This document shows positions 16,641 through 53,884 of a stretch of 64,000 bases of DNA, one piece after another. The position numbers and the translations under genes are program-made. How positions within the stretch are numbered: the first letter of the stretch is position 1; each line of letters opens with the position of its first letter. A model generated the notes under the pieces. It ran no database searches. It was not told the origin of the DNA and worked only from the letters and a program-made list of their open reading frames with translations. The DNA lies in contig OZ024748.1 in NCBI GenBank assembly GCA_964016885.1, positions 53,692,001 to 53,756,000 of the forward strand. The letters run 5' to 3'. The stretch is from Eledone cirrhosa (Eukaryota).

Positions 16641-17407
16641 GAGATTTCTTCTGTTTTAAGATCTTTTGTTATAGTAAATTTCTTACCCATGACATCAAGA
16701 AAGATGTTTGTCCGACCATGTTCTAGTATGAAAACCTACACATTGACAACCCCTTGTTATTCCTGCTAGCATGGGTTAAGCAAGTAGTTCCATTATAAGA
16801 CAAGTCAGATCAGATGACTATTTCTTGCTCATTCAGAACTTTTCTGCCTAGATATTAATAATGGTATATATTAATTTTATGCTGGGGTTCCCTTTGACAT
16901 AAAAGCTATTTCAAGAGTTCTGCGGGTGTAAAAAGGTTGAGAAACATTGCTCTAATCTAATGAAACACTTAAACTTTTTAAAACACCCAAATTGAAGTAC
17001 TTTTTTACATAGTAAAAGATAGTACTGCTCCTATACTCAAATTACATCTGAGACATGTGGCTGGTTGTTGAAAAAAAAATTGAAATAAATGGGATAACAG
17101 GCCTTGAATACTGGGATCACCTCAGAATGCTCAGACACTATTGTGTCGAACATGGCCATGAGTGACACTACATCATTTCCACGCTGTGGAAAATATTCTA
17201 TCAACATTGCTCAAATGATGCATCAAGTTTAGAAAGTCACCCAAGTTTGGGTCCTCATATCATACAACTCCTACAAAAGTTAAGCTCACGTCCCATAATC
17301 AGATTGTAGAACAGTTTCACCTCAGTTCATTTCTTCTTGAAACAAATCAAGAAGAAAAAAGCCCATAACTTTCAAATTTCTCTGCACAAATATATATATA
17401 TATATAT

Positions 17408-17595
17408 AATATAGATGAGATTCTACAGGACTAGAACTGTTTCATTCATTAGAAATCATCAGGAATCTCTGATGATTTCTAATGAATGAAACAGTTCTAG
17501 TCCTGTAGAATCTCATCTATATTAAAACTTTTATACTCTGCTATGTATTGAGTACCTTACTTACTGTGGTTACCTCCGATTCAACCCGGAATAAC

Positions 17596-23856: not shown

Positions 23857-24050
23857 ATAGGAAGAAGTATGACCCCGACGGCAGAGCTCAAGCCATTTCG
23901 ACGGCTAATTCTGGACAGAATTAGCCGTCGAAACGGCTTGAGCTCTGCCGTCGGGGTCATACTTGTTCCTATTACCCACTCTACTACCCTGAGTATTGAG
24001 TACTTTGGTGCGTTATTGTCCATTTGGTTCCTTACCACATTTCCTTCGTT
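23857..24050 (+). mobile_element. Palindromic element in (TA)n: 116-bp hairpin (hammerhead 3' half plus its inverse) and an 80-bp tail
   Basis: Arms ataggaagaagtatgaccccgacggc... and ...gccgtcggggtcatacttgttcctat; copies at 42372 and 53681. Confidence 0.85.
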
Positions 24051-33919: not shown

Positions 33920-34045
33920 AGGATGGATTAAGTTAGAAACTGGTTAGACCATTACTCACCAGAGTACTCAATACTTGAGGTAGAGTATGGTTATATGAAT
34001 GAGTCAGAACCCCGACGGCTGAGCTCTTGCCATTTCAACATCTAG
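33920..34045 (-). mobile_element. Non-palindromic relative of the 23857 element
   Basis: Minus strand gaaatggcaagagctcagccgtcggggttc...actctacctcaagtattgagtact; similar piece at 44105-44230 (+). Confidence 0.7.
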
Positions 34046-34106
34046 TTATGACACATTCATATATATATATGTATGTGTATGTGTGTGTGTATACATATAT
34101 ATCATA

Positions 34107-42371: not shown

Positions 42372-42585
42372 ATAGGAACGAGTAGGAGCCCGATGGCTGA
42401 GCTCAAGCTGTTTCGACGGCTAATTCTGGACTAAAATCATGATTTTAGTCCAGAATTTAGCCGTCGATACGGCTTGAGCTCAGCCGTCGGGGTCCTACTC
42501 GTTCCTATCACCCACTCTACTACCCTAAGTATTGAGTACTTTGGTGCATTATGGTCCATCTGGTTCCTTACCACATTTCCTTCGT

Positions 42586-43930: not shown

Positions 43931-44279
43931 CAAATATGTATATATAGGTAAATATATGTATATATATAAATATATATATATATATGTATATATATACAAA
44001 TATGTATATATAGGTAAATATATGTATATATATATATTAATATATATATATATATATATATTTACATATATTAATATATATATATATATATTTACATATA
44101 AACAGCTAGCTCTAGTCTACAATTAGCAAGAGCTCAGCTGTCGGTGTCCCAACTCTTTATAATATAACCATACTCTACTACCTCAAGTATTGAGTACTCT
44201 AGAGAGCAACAGTCTAACCAGTTTCAAAGTGATTGCATCTTGAATTATATATATTTATATATATATATATATATATTAT

Positions 44280-48070: not shown

Positions 48071-48290
48071 TAAGTTAAAAAAAATTACATCTACATATGC
48101 ATACTGAAATACTAGTGTGTATATGAATACACACACGTATACATATGTATATGTAACAAGTCTTTCACTGGTTGCTTTACTGTGAGCACCCAGCTATTCT
48201 GTATGTAAACACACAGACAAACCGGTTTTTAGAGTCATACTGGTTTTTGAGGGAACACCTTCCCTCTATTCTCCAGAAAGCCAGACAAGG

Positions 48291-48335
48291 AATATTGAAC
48301 TAGTTTCGTTGTTGCTACAACTCATCAGCAATATT
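48291..48335 (-). ncRNA. Minimal type I hammerhead ribozyme motif (intact core)
   Basis: Minus strand: aatattg CTGATGA gttgt-agca-acaac GAAAC ta GTT caatatt; stem I is extended by 48268-48280 pairing with 48351-48363. Confidence 0.88.
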
Positions 48336-48436
48336 TACCTATCTACCGGCCTTTCTGGAGAATTGTAAAAGCACATATCGTTATATGCTTTTTCTATGAA
48401 AATTAGTATATATATATTTATATGTATATATATATG

Positions 48437-53680: not shown

Positions 53681-53884
53681 ATAGGAAAAGGTATGACCCC
53701 GACGGCAGAGCTCAAGCTGTTTCGACGGCTATTTCTGGACTATTTCAGTCCAGAAATAGCCGTCGAAATGGCTTGAGCTCTGCCGTCGGGGTCATACCTT
53801 TTCCTATTACCCATTCTACTACCCTAAGTTTGAGTACTCTGGTGCGTTATGGTCCATCTGGTTCCTTACCACATTTCCTTCGTT
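53681..53884 (+). mobile_element. Palindromic (TA)n-inserted element, copy 3
   Basis: Hairpin 53681-53807 plus tail. Confidence 0.85.

What the first reader, a model, noticed from the sequence alone, without database searches (positions are those of the whole stretch)
23857..24050. Three palindromic elements whose right arm is the 3' half of a hammerhead
Seen at 23857, 42372 and 53681: the right arm at 23857 reads tagccgtc GAAACGGC ttgagctct GCCGUC ggggtcatac, i.e. GAAA, a 5-bp stem III with palindromic gagctc loop, and a GUC site (single substitutions in the other two copies). CUGANGA is absent and an inverted copy of the arm takes its place. The outer arm end is the same (cctat) in all three. 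Copy-specific substitutions mostly appear in both arms (gaacgagtagga/tcctactcgttc versus gaaaaggtatga/tcataccttttc), and centre lengths differ. Inference: each palindrome was made independently at insertion by snap-back within stem II, a reproducible signature of the integration mechanism. These copies would yield dsRNA hairpins rather than active ribozymes.
Basis: partly seen in the sequence, partly recalled or inferred. Interest (0 to 1): 0.75.

Follow-up and report, generated by a model that had tools for sequence, protein, structure and literature searches.

The report
Twin-primed Penelope stubs lacking half ribozyme
These three DNA palindromes are short back-to-back stubs of a very abundant and likely still active Penelope-like jumping gene; they hold only half of its ribozyme, likely because two separate reverse transcriptions, one from each cut DNA strand, ran off an RNA start that lies inside the ribozyme, which offers a testable answer to how this class makes its inverted ends.

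Summary
The three palindromes are real (23857-23972, 42372-42508, 53681-53807; each followed by a 76-77-nt tail, all in TA runs). They are 5'-truncated insertions of a Penelope-like retroelement with Hydra-clade protein motifs; young copies have intact 717-codon ORFs and a 3,531-bp tandem unit. Long copies carry the missing hammerhead 5' half, with core UUGANAA (U3-A8 variant), not CUGANGA. The head-to-head layout with one-sided tail is the known layout of this class. Whole-arm snap-back is not supported: either arm may be the longer (12 vs 14 short loci; 7 vs 8 long loci, by up to kilobases). Arms stop at one place: 69 of 81 arms reaching the zone end 54-66 nt upstream of the fixed end, often exactly at initiator-like adenines inside stem II, and 98 of 100 such arms add an untemplated C, the mark expected from a capped RNA start. 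Best model (inferred): two cDNAs, primed on opposite strands and started at the two tail boundaries, run off the mRNA start and are joined end to end. No RNA data were available. Earlier scan notes reached the same twin-priming model on other DNA of this genome.

The parts
23857..23916 (-). Element 1, tail-less arm (60 nt; inferred second cDNA, starting at the CCTAT boundary)
   Evidence: arm extent read against long copies
23916..23972 (+). Element 1, tail-bearing arm (57 nt, 1-nt overlap with the other arm): stem II 3' strand, GAAA 23930-23933, stem III, GUC 23950-23952, stem I 3' strand. The tail-less arm is the longer by 3 nt.
23973..24049 (+). Element 1, 77-nt one-sided tail; in full elements it lies directly before the ORF region
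42372..42508 (.). Element 2 palindrome; both arms reach the upstream initiator-like A, each followed by an extra C/G, around a central AT (42436-42443)
42509..42585 (+). Element 2, 77-nt tail
53681..53807 (.). Element 3 palindrome; tail-less arm 62 nt, tail-bearing arm about 66 nt; one private substitution present in both arms
53808..53883 (+). Element 3, 76-nt tail
33947..34050 (-). Older diverged relative (75-79% identity): one-armed stub with part of the tail
44130..44198 (+). Older diverged relative (74-80% identity), partial

Best explanation
The palindromes are severely 5'-truncated insertions of a Penelope-like retroelement with Hydra-clade motifs, likely made when two cDNAs, primed from the two strands of a cut in a (TA)n run, each ran to the RNA's likely capped start inside hammerhead stem II and were joined head to head. 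Shown: family identity; ORF with RT and C-terminal GIY-YIG-type motifs; TA targets; two fixed outer ends 77 nt apart; either arm may be longer; a sharp stop zone with an untemplated C; the full hammerhead (U3-A8 core) only in longer copies. Inferred: the two fixed ends are the two reverse-transcription start sites, as measured in vitro for another family; the stop zone is the transcription start; the extra C copies the cap; the centre is sealed by microhomology-type end joining with short templated fillers. Inferred consequence: an mRNA starting there carries only the ribozyme's 3' half at its front and a whole ribozyme in its downstream repeat; long and more-than-unit arms would come from read-through (or circular) RNA. 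The stubs lack the ORF and half the ribozyme, so they are likely dead ends, and would form roughly 55-65-bp dsRNA hairpins if transcribed.
For: Full element at L031: TA run, inverted copy from ATAGG, direct pLTR plus tail, ORF, pLTR plus tail, TA run. Young copies: 784-codon open frames and 3,531-bp tandem period; 12 full-length ORFs, 8 distinct proteins, in 20 fetched loci. In 16 of 20 young loci with both ends in view, one arm ends at CCTAT and the other at the tail end; tail-less arm longer in 7, tail arm in 8, equal in 1; in L086 and L094 the tail-less arm is longer by about 1,020 and 550 nt within one unit. In 58 loci found by the tail alone (own two left out), 46 were two-armed: tail-less longer by 5 nt or more in 12, tail arm in 14, within 4 nt in 20; 69 of 81 arms that reach position 54 stop at 54-66, against 5-10% loss per 13-nt bin before it (Fisher p about 2e-42, arms treated as independent). 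Many arms start exactly at A61 whatever the partner arm does, also in one-armed copies joined to TA. Where both arms stop at A61 and the next base could be C or T, it is C in 98 of the first 100 listed arms (330 loci in all; hand count), and in 19 of 20 arms after dropping fillers that begin CAG or CCAG on either strand; 0 of 98 long copies have G at that place. An extra G marks capped full-length L1 junctions (PMC11702581, passage). Two RT start sites bound the tail, and both strands are cut and extended, in the anole element (PMC11167929). A young natural copy folds by minimum energy into the three-way hammerhead junction; the U3-A8 core is a described PLE variant (PMC4209133).
Against: No RNA evidence: no RNA holder was listed, so start site, cap and cleavage are inferred from DNA. 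Reverse transcriptases can add untemplated bases at any template end, and part of the C excess can come from templated CAG/CCAG fillers. Stops spread over 54-66 and lie on the 3' strand of the upper stem II hairpin, so structural stalling may contribute. Arms of one insertion share their haplotype (13 of 14 young loci concordant at recurrent variants; 37 of 42 short ones at three diagnostic sites), which snap-back also predicts; the two-cDNA model needs the same RNA or the same source locus for both. In one-armed junctions the G excess is weak (about 6 G to 2 unexplained C, hand count). 20 of 46 short loci are near-symmetric and do not discriminate. Pfam found nothing in the ORF, so domains rest on motifs and on comparison by eye with the published alignment. 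The initiator consensus is recalled.
Confidence: 0.75

Rival explanations
1. One reading: one cDNA folds back within stem II and copies itself to make the inverted arm.
For: Arms match their own partner; three rare alleles are clearly shared by both arms (L110, L129, L134); short self-templated fillers occur at centres; 20 of 46 short loci are near-symmetric.
Against: A cDNA begun at the tail end cannot give a longer tail-less arm, and one begun at CCTAT has no tail to copy, yet the tail-less arm is longer in 12 of 46 short and 7 of 16 long loci. It gives no reason for the return strand to stop at CCTAT each time, nor for one-armed copies to start at the same base. For five multi-unit long loci the argument is weaker because the arm contains an upstream tail.
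Confidence: 0.07
2. Two cDNAs as in the best model, but they stop because the RT stalls at the upper hairpin of stem II (or at a cut in it), not at a capped start.
For: The stop zone 57-65 is the 3' strand of the apical stem II hairpin; stops spread over 13 nt; long copies pass through the same place.
Against: The RT passes stems I, III and lower stem II with little loss (5-10% per bin); starts are base-exact at two adenines in initiator-like words; the added base is C in 98 of 100 arms. Another family in the window (17404) is centred just upstream of its core, not in stem II.
Confidence: 0.12
3. Self-priming on an antisense RNA makes the head-to-head junction, as proposed in print for rotifer Penelope elements.
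For: PMC3846280 (Discussion passage) reads junction palindromes as self-priming on an antisense template; which arm keeps the tail could then be set by later endonuclease resolution, so arm asymmetry alone does not exclude it.
Against: Many junctions have 0-2 nt of overlap and loops up to kilobases; an extra G on the sense strand at a fixed base fits the 5' end of a sense RNA; in vitro work shows sense-template initiation at the tail boundaries on both strands (PMC11167929).
Confidence: 0.05
4. The palindromes are a MITE-like or SINE-like unit that amplifies as a palindrome from a few master copies.
For: Thousands of short copies with near-identical outer ends; some apexes recur.
Against: Centres are highly varied, the same centre recurs in different subfamilies, and arm lengths form a continuum up to more than one full unit.
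Confidence: 0.01

Closest known systems
Hydra clade of Penelope-like elements, incl. Hydra-1_Obim (Craig et al. 2021, PMC8557442; section 11 read whole, other passages and supplement hits seen)
   Same: C-terminal GIY-YIG-type endonuclease; RW-basic motif, DKT, CxCx5C linker, CxxC before E and CxH after N, no GxKF/Y; (TA)n insertion; hammerhead in the 3' region; alignable by eye with the printed Hydra-1_Obim protein.
   Different: A different family: four DNA words and one peptide word from this element had 0 hits in the supplement file. Unit 3,531 bp (Hydra generally under 3 kb); core U3-A8 or C3-A8, not canonical (Hydra-1_Obim has ctgaagag); pLTR tandems present; tail 77 nt.
General EN+ PLE insertion layout: inverted 5'-truncated copy plus one-sided tail (PMC8557442 Fig. 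2 legend; PMC3846280 passages; PMC2377424 passages)
   Same: Head-to-head inverted copy at the 5' side, partial tandems, tail on one end.
   Different: Tail 77 nt rather than 30-40; most copies are minimal stubs stopped at one site; the printed explanation seen is antisense self-priming or is left open.
Poseidon element of Anolis in vitro (Frangieh et al. 2024, PMC11167929; parts 1-2 of 4 read)
   Same: Both strands cut and extended at AT-rich DNA; two internal RT start sites bound the tail; ribozyme cleavage not needed for insertion.
   Different: The parts read do not address inverted arms, run-off or a cap mark; canonical C3-G8 core; other clade.
PLE hammerheads, U3-A8 variant of Schistosoma (Cervera and de la Pena 2014, PMC4209133; parts 1-2 of 4 read)
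   Same: Type I fold in the pLTR, U3-A8 core, palindromic loop 3, pairs of motifs on opposite strands 100-700 bp apart noted.
   Different: Here stem III is a stable 5 bp and stem II is long; about a quarter of 5' halves have a mismatched C3-A8 core; the likely RNA start lies within stem II.
L1 twin priming and cap-derived extra G (PMC11702581, passages)
   Same: Second priming from the other DNA end; extra G at full-length 5' junctions.
   Different: L1 twin priming copies different parts of the RNA and gives an inversion without duplication; here the same stretch is copied twice from two fixed starts.

Membership tests
EN+ Penelope-like element | Single ORF with RT and C-terminal GIY-YIG endonuclease | tested here: met
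   717-codon ORF with FD..YRDD and VIY..YIG motifs; Pfam scan gave 0 families; homologues carry PF01541 in one case
EN+ Penelope-like element | pLTRs from partial tandems, inverted 5'-truncated copy, one-sided tail | tested here: met
EN+ Penelope-like element | Hammerhead motif in the pLTR | tested here: met
   three-way junction by folding of a natural young copy; 5,071 pattern matches to the 5' half
Hydra clade | RWK motif, DKT for DKG, no GxKF/Y | tested here: met
   RLRWR (R for K), DKT, no GxKF/Y
Hydra clade | CxCx5C linker; CxxC and CxH beside conserved E and N; CCHH absent | tested here: met
   CxCx5C at 639, CxxC..E at 737, N..CxH at 756; only one Cys inside the GIY-YIG core
Hydra clade | (TA)n insertion | tested here: met
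   tail ends in a TA run in 78 of 78 scored loci (77 by the rule, 1 by eye)
Hydra clade | Generally under 3 kb, canonical hammerhead core (typical, not defining) | tested here: not met
   unit 3,531 bp; core U3-A8
Hydra clade | Placement in the RT phylogeny | not tested
Neptune/Nematis clades | CX2-5CxxC linker finger and CCHH | tested here: not met
   no CX2-5CxxC match; my first guess, dropped
Type I hammerhead ribozyme (long copies) | Core 3-8 pair, GAAA, NUH, three stems | tested here: met
   U3-A8 in 76 of the first 100 listed, C3-A8 mismatch in 24; position 7 varies G/U; fold
Type I hammerhead ribozyme (long copies) | Self-cleavage at GUC | not testable with these tools
   no RNA runs; arm starts are not clearly enriched at the cut site (about 13 of 100 at 19-21, about 10 expected; hand count)
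Type I hammerhead ribozyme (the three window stubs) | 5' core strand present | tested here: not met
   absent in all three; they fold as one long hairpin

The most novel reading that the evidence does not exclude
Penelope-like elements integrate by obligatory double priming: both strands of the target cut are extended from two fixed RNA sites, so the inverted copy is the second cDNA and the tail is the gap between the starts. In this family the promoter sits inside the ribozyme's stem II, so the mRNA's front copy is a half ribozyme while the rear copy is whole, and thousands of genomic stubs record the capped start at single-base resolution on both arms.
Probability: 0.6. Interest if true: 0.7.

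Novelty: new variant of a known kind. Interest (0 to 1): 0.5.

Why it matters
How Penelope-like elements form tandem and inverted ends is named as an open problem (PMC8557442), and the one explanation I saw in print is antisense self-priming (PMC3846280). This family gives thousands of natural junctions and young intact copies that favour double priming and end joining, link the in vitro two-start result to the genomic layout, and predict exact transcription starts. It also gives a natural series of ribozyme cores (U3-A8 and C3-A8) to assay. As a side effect the genome holds thousands of short near-perfect hairpins that could feed dsRNA pathways if transcribed; that was not tested. The layout and the clade themselves are known.

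Tried and rejected
Rfam scan: no hammerhead hit at the three stubs among the 150 rows shown of 507; mostly TA-repeat noise. Inverted-repeat finder was swamped by TA repeats. Pfam, phage tblastn and PDB sequence search gave nothing useful. Tail search with the young copy returned no match, as very common words are skipped. RNA: no RNA holder listed; contigs of three runs cannot show starts. Script failed to build its reference pool, so its classes are void and were not used. Neptune assignment rejected. Splice-acceptor origin of the stop rejected: arms begin at the A of AG, not after it. G at position 62 as a subfamily trait rejected (0 of 98 long copies; overlapping loci may count twice). Canonical CUGANGA parent rejected (9 matches). 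Cleaved RNA as template: no clear excess at the cut site, inconclusive. Order of C3-A8 and U3-A8 subfamilies not established. No host exon was evident among ORFs of 130 aa or more; whether the stubs lie in an intron is unknown. Literature searches returned 0 papers; one search listed no paper with both pLTR and twin priming; most subscription journals and bioRxiv supplements were not searchable, so absence from print is not shown.

Full report
Observation. The three elements are present as described. Each is TA run, left arm from ATAGG, centre, right arm to CCTAT, a 76-77-nt tail, TA run. Arms are closer to their own partner than to other left arms (42 loci). Most arm-shared differences are subfamily variants found in many loci. 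All three fold as one long hairpin (-115 to -132 kcal/mol with tail). Positions below are counted upstream from the last base of CCTAT.

What it is. A search of the own genome with arm plus tail gave 1,569 candidates, 40 scored. Longer hits extend upstream; L031 is a complete unit with an inverted copy, a direct repeat plus tail, an interrupted ORF, and a second repeat plus tail, between TA runs. A protein search returned 138 scored places, most with one score, many with 784-codon open frames, in tandems of 3,531 bp and in inverted pairs: a young and likely active family. The ORF shows RT motifs, a C-terminal GIY-YIG-type core and the Hydra-clade marks RW-basic, DKT, CxCx5C, CxxC and CxH (against section 11 of PMC8557442). 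It aligns by eye with Hydra-1_Obim but is another family. Pfam gave no hit; a tree was not built. An octopus host is suggested by that relative and by earlier notes; I did not test it.

The ribozyme. Long copies carry the 5' half. The young copy folds by minimum energy into stem I, core, long stem II, GAA, stem III and the cut site; the outer end of stem I lies 3 nt from the CCTAT boundary. The genome holds 5,071 exact matches to a 5'-half pattern; of the first 100 listed, 76 have U3-A8, 24 have C3-A8, none G8, and position 7 varies. G8 occurs in 27 matches, 9 of them canonical CUGANGA. U3-A8 is a described PLE variant (PMC4209133). Cleavage is untested; arm starts show no clear excess at the cut site (hand count).

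How the palindromes form. In 20 young loci, 16 show both ends (one tail end is clipped by my fetch); all 16 have one arm ending at CCTAT and the other at the tail end. The tail-less arm is longer in 7, the tail arm in 8, equal in 1. These loci were picked as inverted or tandem ORF pairs, so they show the layout, not its frequency. For an unbiased view I took 60 loci found with the tail alone and left out the window's own two: 46 of 58 are two-armed by script, tail-less longer in 12, tail arm longer in 14, near-equal in 20 (no bias, p 0.85). One cDNA folding back cannot give both classes. Two cDNAs, one per target strand, each from its own fixed start, can. This matches the anole element, which cuts and extends both strands and starts at the two ends of the tail (PMC11167929). 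Both arms share a haplotype in 13 of 14 young loci and 37 of 42 short ones (two of the 42 are misaligned short arms), so they come from one RNA or one source locus; this fits snap-back as well and does not discriminate.

Why the 5' half is missing. Of arms that reach position 54, 69 of 81 stop by 66. Many start exactly at A61 or A65 whatever the partner does, and so do one-armed copies joined to TA. Both adenines sit in words that match the insect initiator consensus (recalled, not from a call); Drosophila Penelope has an internal initiator-type promoter in its pLTR (PMC2377424, passages). Where both arms stop at A61 and C or T was allowed next, C follows in 98 of the first 100 listed arms of 330 loci, and in 19 of 20 after dropping fillers that could be templated (hand counts; p); no long copy has that base (0 of 98). 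Element 2 in the window shows the same at A65 on both arms. An extra G is the cap mark at full-length L1 junctions (PMC11702581, passage). So the stop is most likely the capped RNA start, inside stem II. Rivals are hairpin stalling (the zone is the 3' strand of the upper hairpin) and antisense self-priming (PMC3846280). Centres show 0-2-nt overlaps or short, often self-templated fillers, as expected of microhomology-type end joining (general knowledge).

Abundance. 3,654 apexes match one exact pattern that needs both arms to reach 61, and 1,948 another with one shorter arm; these are lower bounds. Three copies in 64 kb need no special explanation.

Known versus new. The layout, tail, pLTR hammerhead and clade are described (PMC8557442, PMC3846280, PMC4209133). 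The family, its U3-A8 core with long stems, the start inside stem II and the cap-like base on both arms were not found in searches, which miss most subscription journals and bioRxiv supplements. The retrozyme preprint (10.64898/2026.07.22.740005, part 1 of 5 read) concerns tandem units, not these stubs. Earlier scan notes on this genome reached twin priming and start-site centres for other pieces; my reading was recorded before that look-up, except the Hydra lead, which I then tested.

Verdict. Observation confirmed; interpretation partly supported. Identity as Penelope-like stubs about 0.97, two-cDNA origin about 0.85, capped start about 0.75-0.8; combined 0.75. Interest 0.5.

Noticed in passing
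window 17404-17579: A second TA-embedded palindrome with one-sided tail from another family; its arms include a CUGAUGA core and the centre lies a few bases upstream of it.
   Followed up: partly
window 23973-24049, 17520-17560 and the printed 3' end of a coral Hydra element: The tails of different families share a CTCT..GTATTGAG(T/C)AC word that folds as a hairpin; a candidate signal for RT binding or initiation.
   Followed up: no
window 48275-48346 (-), 24440 (+), 11266, 12533, 18804, 60421 (-): Further hammerhead-like cores from other repeat families (Rfam HH9 hit below gathering score; regex hits).
   Followed up: no
G000: Arms that start at A65 often carry one more T than any long copy seen (4 T versus 3), suggesting slippage at transcription start or at the template end.
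   Followed up: partly
G000: About a quarter of listed 5' halves have a mismatched C3-A8 core yet belong to amplified subfamilies, in line with cleavage being dispensable for insertion; age order untested.
   Followed up: partly
L102:3251-3754; L097:3097-3369: Young insertions with extra template switches at the centre: repeated 176-nt pieces covering the ribozyme 3' region, and a 273-nt piece from elsewhere in the unit.
   Followed up: no
L099:3787-3987: The open frame extends 67 codons upstream of the first Met, through stem III, the cut site and the tail.
   Followed up: no
L099, positions 48-37 upstream of CCTAT: Relative to A65, +18 to +29 resembles the Drosophila MTE promoter element (9 of 12, consensus recalled) and overlaps the ribozyme's GAAA.
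   Followed up: no
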